Positions 14,663 through 54,156 of a stretch of DNA of 64,000 nucleotides are shown piece after piece (the stretch's first letter is position 1; every line of letters starts with the position of its first letter). A model generated the notes under the pieces. That model had not been told where the DNA came from and did not search any database. It saw only the letters and a program-made list of their open reading frames with translations. A program made the translations under genes and the position numbers. This DNA comes from Escherichia coli. GTDB taxonomy: Bacteria > Pseudomonadota > Gammaproteobacteria > Enterobacterales > Enterobacteriaceae. The stretch lies in NCBI RefSeq assembly GCF_003018115.1, contig NZ_CP027457.1; one strand, given 5' to 3'.

Positions 14663-15139
14663 ATGAAACTCATCAGTAACGATCTGCGCGATGGCGATAA
14701 GTTGCCGCATCGTCATGTCTTTAACGGCATGGGTTACGATGGCGATAATATTTCACCGCATCTGGCGTGGGATGATGTTCCTGCGGGAACGAAAAGTTTT
14801 GTTGTCACCTGCTACGACCCGGATGCGCCAACCGGCTCCGGCTGGTGGCACTGGGTAGTTGTTAATTTACCCGCTGATACCCGCGTATTACCGCAAGGGT
14901 TTGGCTCTGGTCTGGTAGCAATGCCAGACGGCGTTTTGCAGACGCGTACCGATTTTGGTAAAACCGGATACGATGGCGCAGCGCCGCCGAAAGGCGAAAC
15001 CCATCGCTACATTTTTACCGTTCACGCGCTGGATGTAGAGCGTATTGATGTCGATGAAGGAGCCAGCGGCGCGATGGTCGGGTTTAACGTTCATTTCCAC
15101 TCTCTGGCAAGCGCATCGATTACCGCGATGTTTAGTTAA
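14663..15139 (+). CDS. ybhB: PEBP/YbhB family protein
   Basis: Translation MKLISNDLRDGDKLPHRHVFNGMGYDGDNISPHLAWDDVPAGTKSF..., 158 aa, RBS AAAGGAGGG upstream. Confidence 0.88.
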   Translation: MKLISNDLRDGDKLPHRHVFNGMGYDGDNISPHLAWDDVPAGTKSFVVTCYDPDAPTGSGWWHWVVVNLPADTRVLPQGFGSGLVAMPDGVLQTRTDFGKTGYDGAAPPKGETHRYIFTVHALDVERIDVDEGASGAMVGFNVHFHSLASASITAMFS

Positions 15140-15229
15140 TCACTCTGCCAGATGGCGCAATGCTATCTGGTATCACTTAAAGGTATTAAAAACAACTTTT
15201 TGTCTTTTTACCTTCCCGTTTCGCTCAAG

Positions 15230-15244
15230 TTAGTATAAAAAAGC
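15230..15244. repeat. attR: Prophage attachment site core, attR (P-O-B' read on the minus strand)
   Basis: Exact lambda 15-bp core GCTTTTTTATACTAA (as reverse complement) with bacterial B' arm CTTGAGCGAAACG on the ybhB side and lambda-like P arm on the phage side. Confidence 0.85.
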
Positions 15245-15691
15245 TGAATGCGAAACAGCAAACCAAATAATATCAATACGTTACAATGCATTTAGTCTAA
15301 AAAATAGACTGCATAATGCTACAAAACACAACATATCCAGTCACTATGAATCAACTACTTAGATGGTATTAGTGACCTGTAACAGAGCATTAGCGCAAGG
15401 TGATTTTTTGTCTTCTTGCGCTAATTTTTTGTCAACACACTGGGTTAGCTAAATTTACAACCATGCTCAGTATCTCGATAAGCGCAGAGAAATGATGCAG
15501 TGGTGGGCAGACTGGTTTGATAGGAAGGTGTAACCTGAAAGTAGCACACAGCCTTTATTCCGTTTACCAGGCTTTGTGCTATAACTCTTGCATAACATCA
15601 TTATTAACATCAATTTCCATTCAAATTGATTTTATTTAATCTAAATTAACAAAATGTAATCCTCATTTAAACGCATATTTAAAATCATTAT

Positions 15692-16756
15692 CTATTTCAC
15701 AAGCATATTTTTATTATTTCTTTTGAAAACAACATTGGTTAACAACCTTATTACAGGTTTTTCTAAGTAGTAACTAAATATCATTGACGTTATTAAAGCG
15801 AAGATAATCATTGCAGCATAAAGGATAATTGCTCCTGTATAGTCGGTTATTTTATAACCAATGCATCTTAAAAAGGTTGAAAGCACAATGAAAGAAATTG
15901 TATGAATCAAATATATAGAATACGAAGCATCCCCAAGCTTCATAAGTGCTTTGTGAACAAATGATTTTTCATTGAAAGAAATATTTATTGCGCCAAGAAC
16001 ACATAAGAGAGATGGCACCCCTACGTATATAATACGCTCATCACCAACACCCCATACATTAGTCCCAACAATTAAAAATAGACCTACAGCAAAACATAAA
16101 ACTGATAGTTTTATGTTTTGAAGAATCTTTTTCTGATAAACATAGCCGCATATCATACCGAATATGAATTCAAGATGTATCGGGCTGAAAAATAATCTTT
16201 GGATAAAGTTCAAGCTGCCCCAGTTATAAAACAAGAATGTATAAGTACAGAATAGGACGCCAGTGGCAACTCTTCCATATTTACCAAAAATACAGCACAT
16301 TAATGCTAGCGACATATAGAAGTAAACTTCAAAATTTAGTGTCCAACTTATTGCATAAATGGTTTCTGCCTTCCATGATTCAGATGGGTAAAACAAAAAC
16401 ATAGCGCTTGTTACAAACTTCCTGAAAGCATCATCAGGAATCTTGCCAGTTACCATTAAGGCTATAGCATAAAGCAAAAGAGACATCCAGAATGCTGGAG
16501 CTACGCGAATTAATCTTTTAATTATAAAATCACCAATACCACGATCGCTCCTCATGCACTTTCCGATAGTTATGTACATAACCATTCCAGAAATGACGAA
16601 AAATATATCAACTCCGTACTTACCGAACTGTACGAACCCCTGATCAGGGAGAATAAGTCGCGTAGATGGAACGAAGTGGTTTACTGCTACCTTGGCATGG
16701 ATGAACACTACCATCAAGGCCGCAATGCCTCGTAAATACTGAAGCCCAATAATCAT
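15692..16756 (-). CDS. Acyltransferase-3 family membrane protein, probable O-antigen acetyltransferase (seroconversion)
   Basis: 354-aa multi-TM translation MIIGLQYLRGIAALMVVFIHAKV...; located between att and tailspike as in Sf6 oac; AT-rich. Confidence 0.7.
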   Translation of the reverse strand: MIIGLQYLRGIAALMVVFIHAKVAVNHFVPSTRLILPDQGFVQFGKYGVDIFFVISGMVMYITIGKCMRSDRGIGDFIIKRLIRVAPAFWMSLLLYAIALMVTGKIPDDAFRKFVTSAMFLFYPSESWKAETIYAISWTLNFEVYFYMSLALMCCIFGKYGRVATGVLFCTYTFLFYNWGSLNFIQRLFFSPIHLEFIFGMICGYVYQKKILQNIKLSVLCFAVGLFLIVGTNVWGVGDERIIYVGVPSLLCVLGAINISFNEKSFVHKALMKLGDASYSIYLIHTISFIVLSTFLRCIGYKITDYTGAIILYAAMIIFALITSMIFSYYLEKPVIRLLTNVVFKRNNKNMLVK

Positions 16757-16767
16757 GAGGTTCTCCT

Positions 16768-16789
16768 AAAATGACATCCATGTCATTTT
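16768..16789. promoter_or_regulatory. Perfect 22-bp palindrome between the tailspike stop and the acyltransferase start
   Basis: AAAATGACATCCATGTCATTTT; possible terminator/attenuator or operator. Confidence 0.4.
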
Positions 16790-16850
16790 AGCGACTAAAC
16801 CACGATGGTAAAGATAATCATAACAACTATTCAACAGAGTAGTTTTGTGT

Positions 16851-18875
16851 TTAGTAAGCAACAAACGTTCCTGGAGATCCAGTGGCAGTGCATCGCAACC
16901 TGAATGGTGCCGTGGTTGCATTCACCAATACAAAATCCTCCCCCTTTCGCCAATAACCACCAGTTGGTATACCCTGAATCCCATTTTGACTATAACCTAA
17001 GTTGTACGTAATTTCTCTTAGGTATGGACCAATGTTTGTTTGCCAAGTTCCTGTTTCCACCCATACATTACTGTGTCGGAGTGATCTCCCCTGAAATGAA
17101 GCATTTGGTTGAGGAGTTACACCATCAACCATTAGACCAATAAATTTCATGGATCGAAGATAGCTAGGAGCTGAAGGTGAAACAGGAAATTCAAATGGCA
17201 CAGTTATTGTCGTTGTCGATAGATAATTGTTTCTGTCCCAAAATTTTATATTGATATCACCAAGATTAAACCTGTTGACATTTCTTATGTCAGCAATTCT
17301 AGAATCCATTAAAGATGGATTGTAAACAAACAAAAGATCACAATCCCCAATTGTTAAATTGTTCAAGGCTCCTTTATCACACGATAGAAACCTTACTCCC
17401 TCTATTTCTCCTGTTATTCTTCCTATAGACACCTCTTCTGCTAGAGTATTGGCGGACCTAGCATTCATAACAGACTTTGGAGTGTTACCATCTGTACCAC
17501 GAAATATATGTAAATGCTCAATATTTATTCTTGAACAATCAGCATAACTAACCGCACCAAGCCCGGTTCCGCCAACTTCAGCATATAGTATTGTCATGTT
17601 TGCATCTGTTGCACCAGCGATAGCTTCTTCACTTCCATCATAGTGGAAATAATCTATATGTATGCGACCACCTCCGTATATGCCATTGTCTGCACAATTT
17701 TTTAGATACATTCTGTTTACTGTTACTTCGATATCCTGCGCTGAATTAAGTATAGAACAACAGTCTACGGCAGATATTGAATTAATAATGTTATTTTTCG
17801 ACCCGTCAAAAAAATGCAGCAGTTGAGGCATAGAAGCATTGCTGTTACCAGTATTTACACAATTGTATCCTCTTATGACCCCAACAACATTATTGGAACC
17901 CTTGAACTGTATTCCAATTACACCAGTACCTGAACCAGATGGCGCGTAAAGCCCAGTTATATACACTGATTTAAAGGTATTGTTACTACCAGATACCCTG
18001 ATAGGCATGCAAGCTGTTTCATTGGCATCAATATTTAGATTAAAATATCCTTTTTCTTTAGTTATATTTACAATATTTCCATAAGTTGGTGATGTTGTAA
18101 TTAACTTGCCGTCATTAATACAATTAATTGAACGGGCTACAGAGGTTGTTCCTGTAAGTTTAATTGTAATCCCGTCTATCAGCACAGGACACCCAGGATA
18201 AGACATTGCAGAGTTGAATAGTTCTGTTTGGTCAACATCGCAACTATCTACAAGGCCTAAAGATTGTGCCTTAACTTCAGTTTGATATACAATAGCCTTA
18301 AGTCCATTTTCTATATCATGAATATTTGAATTATCTTGTATGCCTGAGCTAGATATTATATATACACAACTGCCACCGTCACCTTTTGAAAAAAAACCCC
18401 TCGTCTCAACAATATCGCCTTCCTTTAAATTCATATCTGATTTCATATCAGATACGGTGTCATATTTTCGACCATAATGTGATGAAAGACCTCCAATAAT
18501 AGCATATCCATTGCTACTTGATAAATCTACCCTTAGCCGGTCAGGGTCATACTTCAGCACATTAGGAAAATAGAACTGCTGTGCACCATACGCATCATAA
18601 ACAGCCATAGAATGGCCTTGCACGGTAACGAATTTGGCAATCTGTCCGTTATATACAGGGTAACCAGCAGCGTTAATGATGATTGGTTGAGAAACAGGAA
18701 CGTGAGAACCGTCTTCATTCTCTACATAAACCTGAATCTGGTTTTCAGGATTTACAGGGTCAGTGTCAATTTTACCGATATAAATTTTGCCATTGGCAAC
18801 CGCTTTAAAAGAACGCGCCATAGTGAAGAGTTGCGAAGGCATGCTTACCACAACATTTGCGGTGATATCTGACAT
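16851..18875 (-). CDS. Tailspike protein with P22 gp9-like N-terminal head-binding domain and divergent receptor-binding domain
   Basis: N-terminus [59 protein letters not shown] closely matches P22 tailspike; remainder unrelated. Confidence 0.85.
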
Positions 18876-18996
18876 TTCATTGCTCCAGACGAATGATATG
18901 ATGCAACCATGATGTGATTGCATACCGAAATGGTACTATTGAGTATTTATCCAGTAGGTTACGATGCCATTCCACCCAACTGGTGAGGCATCAAGG

Positions 18997-19263
18997 ATGT
19001 ACAGCAAATACGACGAGGCGCAGTTTCACTTGAGACTTCCGCATGAACTCCACGCGAAAATTAAGCAGCGTGCGAAGATGAATAACAGGTCGCTGAACTC
19101 AGAGATAATTGCAGCGATTGAAGAATCATTGGCTAAACAAAGCTCTGCACCAGTTTACATTGACGATGCAGAGCGTATGGCAGAACAACAATCCGATATA
19201 GTTAAGAAAATGGTTTTTGAAACGCTTAAGACCATGTATAGCAATAATAAAAAGGAAACATAG
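18997..19263 (+). CDS. mnt: Mnt-like ribbon-helix-helix repressor (immI-type)
   Basis: Translation MYSKYDEAQFHLRLPHELHAKIKQRAKMNNRSLNSEIIAAIEESLAK... resembles P22 Mnt/Arc family. Confidence 0.65.
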   Translation: MYSKYDEAQFHLRLPHELHAKIKQRAKMNNRSLNSEIIAAIEESLAKQSSAPVYIDDAERMAEQQSDIVKKMVFETLKTMYSNNKKET

Positions 19264-19333
19264 AAATCTAGTTTCCGACTAAAATGGCATTGCCTTCATG
19301 ATATCCTGTGAAAAACTAAGGAGAGTTAACCAT

Positions 19334-19819
19334 ATGAAAAAATCACTGTTAATTATCCCACTTCTGCTGGTTGGATGCGCAAAAGTAAGTGACTATCAAG
19401 CAAGTTGCGAACAACGCTATCAAAAGCTTAGCGATATGGCTAATTGCCTTGATGCCAGTGTGAAGAACGACTCACGCATGGCATCAGCACCAACACCTAA
19501 GCTGTATGTCCTTGCTGCAAAGGTGCTCGGGCAAGGTGTCGATGAAGGAAAGATAAGTGACGCACAGGCAAGACTTGAGCTTCAGAATCTTTATGTTCAA
19601 TTACAAAGCCAAGAACAAGCCCAACAAATAGCACAAAGCCAAGCATTCCAGCAGGCTTTATTGAATTATCAGGCTGTAAACACAATGCAAGCGATCGAGC
19701 AAAAAGCGCGCCAGCCTGTTATAACTCAACCTTACCCAACACGCGTTGACACATATACAAACTGCAATTCAGGATTTGGAAACACGGTAACATGCAACAG
19801 TAGCAGTAACATCAGATAA
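19334..19819 (+). CDS. Lipoprotein of unknown function (in the P22 sieA position)
   Basis: Signal peptide plus lipobox MKKSLLIIPLLLVGC; Q-rich mature region. Confidence 0.55.
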   Translation: MKKSLLIIPLLLVGCAKVSDYQASCEQRYQKLSDMANCLDASVKNDSRMASAPTPKLYVLAAKVLGQGVDEGKISDAQARLELQNLYVQLQSQEQAQQIAQSQAFQQALLNYQAVNTMQAIEQKARQPVITQPYPTRVDTYTNCNSGFGNTVTCNSSSNIR

Positions 19820-52801: not shown

Positions 52802-53020
52802 ATGTACTTGACACTTCAGGAGTGGAACGCACGCCAGCGACGCCCAAGAAGCCTTGAAACAGTTCGTCGATGGGTGCGCGAATGCAGGATATTCCCACCA
52901 CCGGTTAAGGATGGAAGAGAGTATCTGTTCCACGAATCAGCGGTAAAGGTTGACTTAAATCGACCAGTAACAGGTAGCCTTTTGAAGAGGATCAGAAATG
53001 GGAAGAAGGCGAAGTCATGA
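52802..53020 (+). CDS. xis: Excisionase Xis (lambda-type)
   Basis: 72-aa translation MYLTLQEWNARQRRPRSLETVRRWVRECRIFPPPVKDGREYLFHESAVKVDL... matches lambda Xis. Confidence 0.95.
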   Translation: MYLTLQEWNARQRRPRSLETVRRWVRECRIFPPPVKDGREYLFHESAVKVDLNRPVTGSLLKRIRNGKKAKS

Positions 53021-54068
53021 GCGCCGGGATTTACCCCCTAACCTTTATATAAGAAACAATGGATATTACTGCTACAGGGACCCAAGGACGGGTAAAGAGT
53101 TCGGATTAGGCAGAGACAGGAGGATAGCAATCACTGAAGCTATACAGGCCAACATTGAGTTATTTTCAGGACACAAACACAAGCCTCTGACAGCGAGAAT
53201 CAACAGTGATAATTCTGTTACGTTACATTCATGGCTTGATCGCTACGAAAAAATCCTCGCCAGCAGAGGAATCAAGCAGAAGACACTCATAAATTACATG
53301 AGCAAAATTAAAGCAATAAGGAGGGGGCTGCCTGATGTTCCACTTGAAGACATCACCACAAAAGAAATTGCGGCAATGCTCAATGGATACATAGACGAGG
53401 GCAAGGCGGCATCAGCCAAGTTAATCAGATCAACACTGAGCGATGCATTCCGAGAGGCTATAGCTGAAGGCCATATAACAACAAACCCGGTCGCTGCTAC
53501 TCGCGCAGCAAAATCAGAGGTAAGGAGATCAAGGCTTACGGCTGACGAATACCTGAAAATTTATCAAGCAGCAGAATCATCACCATGTTGGTTAAGACTT
53601 GCAATGGAACTGGCTGTTGTTACCGGACAGCGAGTTGGTGATTTATGCGAAATGAAGTGGTCTGATATCGTAGATGGATATCTTTATGTCGAGCAAAGCA
53701 AAACAGGCGTAAAAATTGCCATCCCAACAGCATTGCATGTTGATGCTCTCGGAATATCAATGAAGGAAACACTTGATAAATGCAAAGAGATTCTTGGCGG
53801 AGAAACCATAATTGCATCTACTCGTCGTGAACCGCTTTCATCCGGCACAGTATCAAGGTATTTTATGCGCGCACGAAAAGCATCAGGTCTTTCCTTCGAA
53901 GGGGATCCGCCTACCTTTCACGAGTTGCGCAGTTTGTCTGCAAGACTCTATGAGAAGCAGATAAGCGATAAGTTTGCTCAACATCTTCTCGGGCATAAGT
54001 CGGACACCATGGCATCACAGTATCGTGATGACAGAGGCAGGGAGTGGGACAAAATTGAAATCAAATAA
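52998..54068 (+). CDS. int: Integrase Int (tyrosine recombinase, lambda-type)
   Basis: 356-aa translation MGRRRSHERRDLPPNLYIRNNGYYCYRDPRTGKEFGLGRDRRIAITEAIQANIELF... matches lambda Int. Confidence 0.97.
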   Translation: MGRRRSHERRDLPPNLYIRNNGYYCYRDPRTGKEFGLGRDRRIAITEAIQANIELFSGHKHKPLTARINSDNSVTLHSWLDRYEKILASRGIKQKTLINYMSKIKAIRRGLPDVPLEDITTKEIAAMLNGYIDEGKAASAKLIRSTLSDAFREAIAEGHITTNPVAATRAAKSEVRRSRLTADEYLKIYQAAESSPCWLRLAMELAVVTGQRVGDLCEMKWSDIVDGYLYVEQSKTGVKIAIPTALHVDALGISMKETLDKCKEILGGETIIASTRREPLSSGTVSRYFMRARKASGLSFEGDPPTFHELRSLSARLYEKQISDKFAQHLLGHKSDTMASQYRDDRGREWDKIEIK

Positions 54069-54141: not shown

Positions 54142-54156
54142 TTAGTATAAAAAAGC
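54142..54156. repeat. attL: Prophage attachment site core, attL (B-O-P' read on the minus strand)
   Basis: 15-bp lambda core (as reverse complement) with lambda-like P' arm between core and int and bacterial arm on the ybhC side. Confidence 0.85.

What the first reader, a model, noticed from the sequence alone, without database searches (positions are those of the whole stretch)
15692..18875. Chimeric tailspike paired with an O-antigen acetyltransferase (likely seroconversion and receptor module)
The tailspike keeps the P22 gp9 head-binding N-terminus (roughly the first 110 residues align by eye), but the rest is unrelated, implying a different polysaccharide receptor specificity. Immediately downstream, next to attR, is an AT-rich acyltransferase-3 family membrane protein in the position where Sf6 carries oac. 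Together they suggest the prophage modifies the host O-antigen that its own tailspike recognises.
Basis: partly seen in the sequence, partly recalled or inferred. Interest (0 to 1): 0.5.

Follow-up and report, generated by a model that had tools for sequence, protein, structure and literature searches.

The report
Prophage tailspike plus O-antigen acetyltransferase cassette
A P22-like prophage carries a tailspike with an uncharacterised receptor-binding domain next to a membrane acetyltransferase. The two genes travel together between phages, and every host whose O-antigen locus could be checked has the same kind (E. coli O20/O137-type), so this is a new example of a known phage trick: recognise a surface sugar, then modify it.

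Summary
Window 16851-18875 (-) encodes a 674-aa tailspike. Residues 1-113 are the P22/Sf6 head-binding domain. Residues 114-674 are a high-confidence right-handed beta-helix with no characterised close relative. Ninety-four bases downstream on the same strand, 15692-16756 (-) encodes a 354-aa AT3-only acyltransferase with all three AT3 catalytic motifs intact. It lies about 450 bp from the lambda-type attR core (15230-15244).

New here:
- The receptor-binding part and the AT3 gene form one mobile cassette. It is 86% identical over 2.5 kb to a long-tailed Citrobacter amalonaticus prophage whose spike has a different N-terminal adaptor.
- In E. coli the cassette sits in P22-like prophages at three different integration sites.
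- Every host that could be typed has the O20/O137 (Gp1) O-antigen gene cluster or, in Citrobacter, a collinear homologue.

Most likely the spike recognises this O-antigen and the AT3 O-acetylates it in lysogens, as in Sf6, BTP1 and CUS-3. No biochemical activity is shown.

Verdict: a new member of a known kind, of moderate interest. The speculative extra is that this gene is the missing outside-the-cluster modifier separating serogroups O20 and O137.

The parts
18537..18875 (-). Tailspike residues 1-113: P22-type head-binding (tail adaptor) domain
   Evidence: PF09008 E 1.9e-67, residues 1-113 of 113. Near-identical to Sf6 gp14 residues 1-112 (PDB 7sg7, E 6.8e-65). About 92% nucleotide identity to HK620 and CUS-3 and 87.5% to Sf6 over this stretch only.
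16851..18536 (-). Tailspike residues 114-674 plus stop: receptor-binding module, made of a small neck subdomain (about 114-230), a right-handed parallel beta-helix and a C-terminal beta domain
16757..16850 (-). 94-bp spacer between tailspike and AT3. It holds a promoter-like site (-35 TTTACC from 16812, -10 TAAAAT 16785-16790), a perfect palindrome AAATGACATGGATGTCATTT (16769-16788) overlapping the -10, and AGGAG before the ATG.
   Evidence: Promoter scan, 9 of 12 matches, not above the shuffle expectation for the region. Sequence read. All these elements are invariant between E. coli and Citrobacter although the flanking coding DNA is 86% identical. The RNA hairpin has z = -1.96 only.
15692..16756 (-). 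AT3-only membrane acyltransferase, 354 aa (putative O-antigen O-acetyltransferase)
   Evidence: PF01757 E 2.9e-30, nearly full length. phrog_3333 'O-acetyltransferase' E 2.5e-49. Motifs R9-X10-H20, FFVISG 52-57 and RLIR 81-84 are present; they are defined in PMC7448272. 88% identical to the AT3 that follows the Citrobacter spike. dN/dS 0.11.
15722..18220 (-). Extent of the DNA cassette shared with Citrobacter amalonaticus prophages: AT3, spacer, and tailspike codons about 219-674
   Evidence: One ungapped-style blastn match, 86.3% over 2499 nt, to L002-L006.
15453..15533 (+). Remnant of the last 26 codons of an IntS/P4-type integrase, carried in together with the cassette
   Evidence: Translation IYNHAQYLDKRREMMQWWADWFDRKV* equals the C-terminus of the intact integrase that follows the AT3 gene in the argW-site prophage L014. 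Window 15453-19229 is 99.3% identical to L014 (context).
15230..15244 (-). attR core of a lambda-type integration between ybhB and ybhC
   Evidence: GCTTTTTTATACTAA occurs exactly twice in the window (15230-15244 and 54142-54156), with 0 expected. ybhB (PBP family) lies at 14663-15139.
54142..54156 (-). attL core; with Int (52998-54068, +) it marks the other end of the roughly 39-kb P22-like prophage
   Evidence: The lambda Int arm-binding and catalytic domains, the P22 coat protein and the P22 portal protein are identified.

Best explanation
This is the receptor module of a P22-like temperate phage, about 39 kb, integrated at att-lambda.

The tailspike plugs into the P22-type tail through its conserved 113-residue head-binding domain. 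It presents a beta-helix receptor-binding body that most likely binds, and probably cleaves, the O-polysaccharide made by the E. coli O20/O137 (Gp1) gene cluster.

The gene immediately downstream encodes a ten-helix-type AT3 membrane acyltransferase. In the lysogen it most likely transfers acetyl groups from cytoplasmic acetyl-CoA onto that same O-antigen in the periplasm. The tailspike of this phage and its relatives would then no longer bind or cut it. That would block superinfection and spare the lysogen's own LPS.

The receptor-binding region and the acyltransferase are inherited as one cassette that recombines onto different tail adaptors and into different phages.

Shown: domain architecture, fold, intact AT3 motifs, co-transfer, host O-locus association. 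Inferred: substrate identity, enzymatic activity of the spike, acetylation, expression in the lysogen, the protective effect.
For: Architecture and fold.

Cassette co-transfer:
- 86.3% identity over 2499 nt across AT3, spacer and spike between E. coli and C. amalonaticus.
- Spike 82% identical from residue 114, AT3 88% identical.
- The Citrobacter spike carries a PF18668 adaptor in a tape-measure-containing tail module.
- The AT3 gene follows the spike in every E. coli locus examined (L001, L014, L025-L029), at att-lambda, dacD-sbcB, argW and one unidentified site. The AT3 is broken in L001 and cut off by the contig end in L029.
- Both genes share low GC, 35-38%, and low dN/dS, 0.11 and 0.08-0.18.

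Host O-type:
- The only complete E. coli genome of 5426 with the cassette is one of just 5 that carry the O20/O137 wzy. The chance of that is about 5/5426.
- A second host is labelled O137:H41. O20 and O137 share the Gp1 cluster (PMC4379981).
- C. amalonaticus genomes carrying the cassette (5,030,678-bp and 4,760,886-bp replicons) also carry a Wzy 50% identical to O20/O137 Wzy. It sits in an O-antigen cluster that is gene-for-gene collinear, with each protein 50-76% identical.
- No acetyltransferase is annotated in that cluster.

AT3 competence: motifs intact. A 68%-identical relative in Enterobacter lies beside gtrABC O-antigen glucosylation genes.

Precedents: BTP1 GtrC protects against the BTP1 tailspike and blocks superinfection (PMC4413052). 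Sf6 has oac next to its spike. CUS-3 has neuO in the same co-directional slot.
Against: - There is no direct evidence for substrate or activity.
- The window's own host could not be O-typed, and only two E. coli hosts carry a serotype label.
- The O20/O137-like cluster appears common in C. amalonaticus (89 index blocks), so co-occurrence there is weakly informative.
- More distant relatives of the receptor-binding domain (64%, 48% and 46% identity) have no AT3 gene beside them.
- The top structural neighbours are capsule lyases, not O-antigen hydrolases.
- The promoter-like site is no better than chance by the scan's own control, so expression in the lysogen is unproven.
- One lineage (O20:H12) carries a nonsense allele of the AT3, Gln186 to stop. 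The function is therefore dispensable for keeping the prophage.
- DebRoy et al. dispute that O20 and O137 clusters are identical (PMC4732683).
Confidence: 0.55

Rival explanations
1. The linkage is positional only. The AT3 is a moron that acylates some other envelope glycan (ECA, colanic acid, a K antigen or peptidoglycan) for a host-fitness reason unrelated to the tailspike's receptor. It travels with the spike only because it sits in the standard variable slot next to it.
For: AT3 proteins act on many substrates (PMC7448272). The nearest named relatives are generic 'ExoZ' exopolysaccharide acetylases at about 30% identity. More distant homologues of the receptor-binding domain lack an adjacent AT3. 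The AT3 is broken in one lysogen lineage.
Against: A single 2.5-kb block with similar divergence in both genes crossed genus and tail type. The adjacent tail adaptor, the neck subdomain and the downstream genes did not. A relative lies beside gtrABC. The O-antigen cluster of the hosts has no annotated acetyltransferase of its own.
Confidence: 0.2
2. The receptor is a capsular (K) polysaccharide rather than the O-antigen. The spike is a capsule lyase and the AT3 acetylates the capsule, as NeuO does for K1 in CUS-3.
Against: Identity to those lyases is 9-12%, and hydrolases such as CBA120 TSP2 and HK620 score nearly as well, so the fold does not tell the chemistry. The host association found is with an O-antigen cluster shared across two genera. 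No capsule information is available either way.
Confidence: 0.12
3. The acetyl group is needed by the spike, not avoided by it. The AT3 would create or complete the receptor epitope, or the spike would be a deacetylating or acetyl-dependent binder, so the pair would work as a matched lock and key rather than as an exclusion device.
For: Co-inheritance alone is equally compatible with dependence. The genes are co-directional with no terminator detected between them, so AT3 could be co-transcribed late with the spike.
Against: The spike is a beta-helix, not an SGNH esterase. The only esterase hint (5jif, E 0.025) is not significant. A prophage that makes its host a better receptor would lose progeny to adsorption on lysogens. 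Known cases (Sf6, BTP1) work the other way. Lysogens with a broken AT3 must still have been infectable.
Confidence: 0.06
4. The AT3 gene is an inactive or decaying passenger.
For: A nonsense allele occurs in the O20:H12 lineage, as fragments of 185 and 154 aa on 10 and 7 contigs. Expression is unproven.
Against: The window's allele is full length with all catalytic motifs. dN/dS is 0.11 over about 0.8 synonymous substitutions per site. Most alleles in the database are intact 354-aa proteins. The upstream spacer is more conserved than the coding DNA.
Confidence: 0.05

Closest known systems
Shigella phage Sf6: gene 14 tailspike (endorhamnosidase) plus oac (gene 15, AT3-only O-antigen acetylase)
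   Same: P22-like phage. Near-identical head-binding domain. An AT3-only acyltransferase lies between the tailspike and int/att. The R/K-X10-H, FFXISG and RXXR motifs are shared.
   Different: The receptor-binding domain is unrelated in sequence. The AT3 is only 37% identical over 83 residues. In Sf6 oac is convergent with the spike and has its own annotated promoter and terminator; here the gene is co-directional, 94 bp downstream. The integrase and att site also differ (lambda type here).
E. coli K1 prophage CUS-3: endosialidase tailspike plus neuO
   Same: P22-like prophage. The acetyltransferase gene sits immediately downstream of the tailspike on the same strand, before int. The remnant int end at 15453-15533 shows that the cassette came from exactly such an argW/IntS-type arrangement.
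   Different: By established knowledge, NeuO is a soluble hexapeptide-repeat enzyme with phase-variable heptanucleotide repeats that acts on a capsule. Here the enzyme is an AT3 membrane protein. No such repeat was looked for, and the inferred target is an O-antigen.
Salmonella prophage BTP1: tailspike plus GtrC(BTP1) acetyltransferase
   Same: The best experimental precedent for the proposed mechanism. The prophage acyltransferase modifies the O-antigen receptor, protects it from the prophage's own tailspike and blocks superinfection (PMC4413052).
   Different: GtrC(BTP1) is described in PMC7448272 as belonging to the AT3-SGNH fused class (OafB family). The protein here is AT3-only at 354 aa, and both host and receptor differ.
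P22 and epsilon34: gp9-type tailspike plus gtrABC conversion genes
   Same: Conserved head-binding residues 1-115 with interchangeable receptor-binding bodies. The conversion genes lie between spike and att and are known to move between phage types (PMC2629481).
   Different: The modification there is glucosylation by a three-gene Gtr system, not acetylation by a single AT3 gene.
CBA120 TSP-type tailspikes (PF18668 N-terminal adaptor)
   Same: The closest homologues of the receptor-binding body (P0002-P0004) carry this adaptor. CBA120 TSP2 is among the best structural matches.
   Different: The window's protein has the P22 head-binding adaptor instead, and its sequence identity to the solved TSPs is about 10%.

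Membership tests
P22-like (Lederbergvirus-type) tailspike | N-terminal head-binding domain (Pfam PF09008, about 110 residues) | tested here: met
   E 1.9e-67 over residues 1-113. PDB matches to Sf6 gp14 and P22 gp9 N-termini.
P22-like (Lederbergvirus-type) tailspike | Right-handed parallel beta-helix receptor-binding body | tested here: met
P22-like (Lederbergvirus-type) tailspike | Gene at the end of the late operon, after the mnt/ant moron, in a genome with P22 coat, portal and ejection proteins | tested here: met
   Mnt/Arc protein at 18964-19263. P22 coat and portal. Homologous loci carry gp7, gp20 and gp16 Pfam families.
P22-like (Lederbergvirus-type) tailspike | Homotrimer with endoglycosidase (or lyase) activity on the receptor polysaccharide | not testable with these tools
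   Candidate conserved polar residues were seen in the family alignment (D396, E417, R473 in full-length numbering, and the NTGNxNxSMPQ loop).
AT3-only carbohydrate O-acetyltransferases (Oac-like; Pfam PF01757) | Full-length AT3 domain without a fused SGNH domain | tested here: met
   PF01757 covers 3-328 of 354 residues and no other domain is present.
AT3-only carbohydrate O-acetyltransferases (Oac-like; Pfam PF01757) | R/K-X10-H motif in TMH1, FFXISG in TMH2, RXXR in the following loop (PMC7448272) | tested here: met
   R9-X10-H20, FFVISG 52-57 and RLIR 81-84. R81 and R84 align with Oac R73 and R76.
AT3-only carbohydrate O-acetyltransferases (Oac-like; Pfam PF01757) | Ten transmembrane helices | tested here: inconclusive
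   A crude Kyte-Doolittle scan gives strong peaks for only about seven segments. No dedicated topology predictor was run and the AT3 protein was not modelled.
AT3-only carbohydrate O-acetyltransferases (Oac-like; Pfam PF01757) | Demonstrated O-acetylation of O-antigen | not testable with these tools
   Needs LPS chemistry.
Sf6 Oac orthologue group | Sequence orthology to Oac (gene 15 of Sf6) | tested here: not met
   37% identity over 83 of 354 residues, E 2e-6 pairwise. No Shigella or Sf6-like record is among the tblastn hits.
Prophage seroconversion / superinfection-exclusion module | Modification gene adjacent to the tailspike and att | tested here: met
Prophage seroconversion / superinfection-exclusion module | Expressed from its own promoter in the lysogen | tested here: inconclusive
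   A promoter-like site with an overlapping palindrome is invariant across genera. The scan as a whole is not above chance, and no transcript data exist.
Prophage seroconversion / superinfection-exclusion module | Modifies the receptor used by the phage's own tailspike | not testable with these tools
   Indirect support only: co-transfer and a shared host O-antigen cluster type.

The most novel reading that the evidence does not exclude
This cassette's AT3 gene is the 'modification gene outside the O-antigen gene cluster' that Iguchi et al. postulated for group Gp1. O-acetylation by the prophage would then be what separates two recognised E. coli serogroups (O20 and O137, or O20 subfactors) that share one biosynthetic cluster.

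The matching tailspike would be the first receptor-binding protein specific for that antigen. The hint is that an intact allele occurs in a strain labelled O137:H41. From memory, not checked here, H41 is also the H type of the O137 reference strain. The strain labelled O20:H12 has a nonsense allele.
Probability: 0.12. Interest if true: 0.6.

Novelty: new member of a known kind. Interest (0 to 1): 0.35.

Why it matters
If the inference holds, it would give three things:
- a receptor-binding protein for a rare and poorly understood O-antigen type. The reported O20 structure does not fit its gene cluster (PMC7685785);
- a concrete candidate for the unexplained serological split inside Gp1 (PMC4379981);
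- a clean natural example that the recognition domain and the gene that masks the recognised sugar are exchanged as one unit across tail morphotypes and genera. This is useful when predicting phage host range or engineering tailspikes.

It does not reveal a new principle. Sf6, BTP1, CUS-3, P22 and epsilon34 already established the logic.

Tried and rejected
- NCBIfam gave no hit for either protein.
- Rfam found nothing in 15100-19400.
- PDB sequence search found nothing for the AT3, and nothing beyond residue 132 of the spike except non-significant hits. These include a hemagglutinin-esterase at E 0.025, which I dismiss as evidence for esterase activity.
- The PHROG label 'colanic acid degradation' (phrog_8280) matches only profile positions 1-255 of 632, that is the head-binding domain plus the neck. 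I do not take it as evidence of substrate.
- I tried to find the published O137 and O20 repeat-unit structures and their O-acetyl status. The review holds them only in figures, and the primary papers are not in the library.
- I tried to cross-match assemblies carrying the spike with assemblies carrying O20/O137 Wzy. The contig look-up collapses near-identical loci, so the sample lists could not be compared. Cross-matching worked only through shared replicon lengths and accession series for two Citrobacter genomes.
- The Enterobacter hormaechei spike next to the 68%-identical AT3 is not the same receptor-binding family: 24% identity over the last 230 residues only. That locus therefore does not extend the cassette.
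- No intrinsic terminator was found between the spike and AT3 or after AT3.
- The spacer hairpin is weak (z = -1.96).
- I could not place the conserved residues on the model because coordinates are not exposed. The hydrolase-versus-lyase question is left open.
Full report
**1. What is there**

The window holds a roughly 39-kb P22-like prophage inserted at the lambda attachment site between ybhB/bioA and ybhC.
- The 15-bp lambda core GCTTTTTTATACTAA occurs exactly twice, at 15230-15244 and 54142-54156, with none expected by chance.
- A lambda-type integrase lies at 52998-54068, next to the second core. P22 coat and portal proteins lie in between.
- At the bio-proximal (attR) end, reading on the minus strand, the order is: an Mnt/Arc-type repressor gene (18964-19263, plus strand), the tailspike gene (16851-18875), a 94-bp spacer, an acyltransferase gene (15692-16756), about 160 bp of AT-rich DNA, an 81-bp integrase remnant, and the att arm.

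The finding's coordinates are exact.

**2. The tailspike**

Residues 1-113 are the P22-type head-binding domain (PF09008, E 1.9e-67). They are almost identical to Sf6 gp14 (PDB 7sg7) and close to P22 gp9. Beyond residue about 120 no solved structure matches by sequence.

In 50,697 phage records the only similarity to the C-terminal body is a Vibrio phage protein at 29.6% identity. DNA similarity to the listed sequenced P22-like phages is confined to the head-binding codons and the mnt side, apart from short att-proximal matches. The chimera is therefore real, and its joint is sharp at YDPD|RLRVDL (residue 113/114).

I built an alignment from an exhaustive HMMER search: 607 cluster representatives at E <= 1e-3, of which only four are above 30% identity over the whole body. 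It gave an AlphaFold2 model with mean pLDDT 92.5 and pTM 0.89.

The fold is a right-handed parallel beta-helix with a small N-terminal neck and a C-terminal beta domain.
- Foldseek against PDB and against viral models agrees. The only closer models are unnamed viral proteins, at 20-23% identity.
- Twenty-four of 59 family members hit PF12708, the pectate-lyase-like domain.

So it is an ordinary depolymerase-type spike body from a family with no characterised member. The fold cannot say whether it is a hydrolase or a lyase.

**3. The acyltransferase**

The 354-aa product matches PF01757 over essentially the whole profile and matches the PHROG 'O-acetyltransferase' family.

It has the three motifs that Pearson et al. 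found in characterised AT3 carbohydrate acetyltransferases and showed to be essential (PMC7448272): R9-X10-H20, FFVISG 52-57 and RLIR 81-84. It has no SGNH domain, so it belongs to the AT3-only class, like Oac.

It is not an Oac orthologue: 37% identity over 83 residues. Unlike Sf6 oac, which is convergent with the spike, it is co-directional. That is the arrangement of neuO in CUS-3.

**4. The two genes are one mobile unit**

This is the main new result. The nearest relative of the receptor-binding body is a Citrobacter amalonaticus protein, P0002. It is 82% identical from residue 114 to the end but has a different N-terminal adaptor (PF18668). It sits at the end of a tape-measure-containing tail module, that is, in a long-tailed prophage.

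Immediately downstream of it, with the same spacing, lies an AT3 gene whose product is 88% identical to the window's. At the DNA level a single match of 2499 nt at 86.3% identity spans window 15722-18220: the AT3 gene, the spacer, and spike codons about 219-674.
- Divergence is similar in both genes. dS is 0.78 for AT3 and 0.50 for spike residues 291-674.
- Both are under purifying selection, with dN/dS of 0.11 and 0.08.
- The neck (residues 114-230) has a different and much more divergent history.
- Both genes share a low GC content of 35-38%, against 49% for the rest of the prophage.

Within E. coli the same spike (identical or >=98%) is followed by the AT3 gene in all seven loci examined. 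These are P22-like prophages at att-lambda (the window and L025), between dacD and sbcB (L001, L026, L027), at argW next to an IntS-type integrase (L014), and at one further unidentified site (L028). L029 is cut off by the contig end.

The window still carries the last 26 codons of that IntS-type integrase at 15453-15533, and window 15453-19229 is 99.3% identical to the argW prophage. The right arm of this lambda-site prophage was therefore recombined in from an argW-type phage.

More distant relatives of the receptor-binding domain (64%, 48% and 46% identity) lie in myovirus-type and siphovirus-type tail modules and have no AT3 neighbour. The linkage is therefore a property of this clade, not of the whole family.

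**5. Which receptor?**

The cassette is rare. One of 5426 complete E. coli genomes has it, even at low-stringency search.
- That genome is labelled O20:H12, and its galF-gnd region encodes 'O20/O137 family' Wzy and Wzx.
- Only five of the 5426 genomes carry that wzy. The chance that the single cassette-bearing genome is one of them is about 0.001.
- A second host of an intact AT3 allele is labelled O137:H41.
- Iguchi et al. placed O20 and O137 in one group, Gp1. The gene sets are identical and the glycosyltransferases are 100% identical. They proposed that the serological difference comes from modification genes outside the cluster (PMC4379981). DebRoy et al. dispute the identity for their O137 sequence (PMC4732683).

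Across genera, the best non-E. coli homologues of O20/O137 Wzy (50% identity) are from C. amalonaticus and a related Citrobacter. The two C. amalonaticus replicons that carry the spike and AT3 (5,030,678 bp, AMG accession series; 4,760,886 bp, SUX series) also carry this Wzy.

Their O-antigen cluster is gene-for-gene collinear with the E. coli one: HAD, a 529-aa protein, GT2, Wzy, Wzx, GT61, GT25, GT4, PssD and PssE. Each protein is 50-76% identical. No gene in the E. coli cluster is annotated as an acetyltransferase.

A temperate phage must adsorb to the host it lysogenises. The simplest reading is therefore that the shared beta-helix recognises the polysaccharide made by this cluster.

Caveats:
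- The window's own host cannot be typed from the window.
- Only two E. coli hosts have serotype labels.
- The cluster seems common in C. amalonaticus, so co-occurrence there is weak evidence.

**6. Mechanism proposed**

By analogy with tested systems, the AT3 protein would O-acetylate the O-antigen in the periplasm of the lysogen. The cognate spike would then no longer bind or cleave it.
- In BTP1, the prophage acyltransferase is necessary and sufficient for protection against BTP1. Without it the prophage's own tailspike shortens the O-antigen (PMC4413052).
- Sf6 oac is a further precedent by established knowledge (gene arrangement).

Support for an O-antigen substrate also comes from an Enterobacter prophage, where a 68%-identical AT3 lies beside gtrABC.

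Expression in the lysogen is plausible but unproven. The spacer has a -35/-10-like pair (TTTACC, 16 nt, TAAAAT) and a perfect 20-bp palindrome overlapping the -10. All of it is invariant between E. coli and Citrobacter. The promoter scan as a whole is not above chance, and the hairpin is weak.

One E. coli lineage has a Gln186-stop allele. The function is therefore not needed to retain the prophage.

**7. Rivals**

- (a) The AT3 acts on another glycan and is linked to the spike only by position.
- (b) The receptor is a capsule, as in CUS-3. The lyase-like top structural hits favour this weakly.
- (c) The spike needs the acetyl group instead of avoiding it.
- (d) The AT3 is a decaying passenger.

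The evidence for and against each is in the rival entries. None is excluded, and together I give them about 0.45.

**8. Comparison and novelty**

This works like Sf6 (spike plus oac), BTP1 (spike plus GtrC) and CUS-3 (spike plus NeuO).

It is a member of the P22-type tailspike family, with the adaptor, fold and genome position all met. It is also a member of the AT3-only acyltransferase family, with the domain and motifs met. It is not an Oac orthologue.

The particulars are new:
- an uncharacterised receptor-binding family;
- a new AT3 subfamily;
- the demonstration that the pair moves as one cassette between tail morphotypes and genera;
- the link to the O20/O137-type O-antigen cluster.

That makes it a new member of a known kind.

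The most novel reading not excluded is that this AT3 is the extra-cluster modifier that splits Gp1 into two serogroups. I give that about 0.12.

**9. Verdict**

Observation confirmed. Interpretation supported by comparative evidence but not demonstrated. Interest 0.35.

Noticed in passing
window 15453-15533 (+): Last 26 codons of an IntS/P4-type integrase, stranded between the AT3 gene and the lambda-type att arm. It equals the C-terminus of the intact integrase in an argW-site prophage that is 99.3% identical over 3.8 kb. The right arm of this att-lambda prophage was therefore swapped in from an argW-type phage.
   Followed up: yes
window 16769-16788 (-): Perfect 20-bp palindrome AAATGACATGGATGTCATTT. 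It overlaps the -10-like hexamer upstream of the AT3 gene and ends just before the AGGAG. It is invariant between E. coli and Citrobacter, while the flanking coding DNA is 86% identical. It could be an operator or a translational hairpin, but the fold z-score is only -1.96.
   Followed up: partly
window 19298-19819 (+): 173-aa ORF with a lipoprotein-like signal (LLVGC), matching only PHROG 6067 of unknown function. It sits next to mnt in the slot where P22 has the ant moron and is transcribed opposite to the late genes.
   Followed up: no
window 17841-18536 (tailspike residues 114-230 approx.): The small neck subdomain between the head-binding domain and the beta-helix has its own history. Against the Citrobacter homologue, 39.5% of nonsynonymous sites differ here, versus 3.9% for residues 291-674. 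Many unrelated proteins match this subdomain alone.
   Followed up: partly
L001 8214-9236 (E. coli O20:H12 strain Res13-Lact-PEB17-18): The AT3 allele in this lysogen has a Gln186-to-stop mutation. The two fragments (185 and 154 aa) recur on 10 and 7 contigs in public data, so a whole lineage has lost the function while keeping the spike.
   Followed up: partly
L016 17808-26870 (E. coli O20/O137 O-antigen cluster); L023 and L017 (Citrobacter): The E. coli Gp1 (O20/O137) O-antigen cluster has a fully collinear counterpart in C. amalonaticus and another Citrobacter, with every protein 50-76% identical while the flanking galF and gnd are 95-96% identical. Liu et al. state that the published O20 structure does not fit this locus.
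   Followed up: partly
L011 7631-12121 (Providencia rettgeri): Downstream of a 48%-identical spike homologue lie three tandem copies of a 377-378-aa gene with no Pfam hit, each preceded by a 44-51-aa ORF, at a spacing of about 1.96 kb.
   Followed up: no
L007 2285-9989 (Enterobacter hormaechei): A 68%-identical AT3 lies between an unrelated PF18668 tailspike and a gtrABC operon, so that prophage carries two O-antigen modification systems side by side.
   Followed up: partly
window 15140-15529: A phage record (vB_EcoP-720R6, ON470605.1) matches this stretch at 92.6% continuously across the att core, including what should be bacterial flank on the ybhB side. Either that record contains host DNA or the flank is itself of phage origin.
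   Followed up: no
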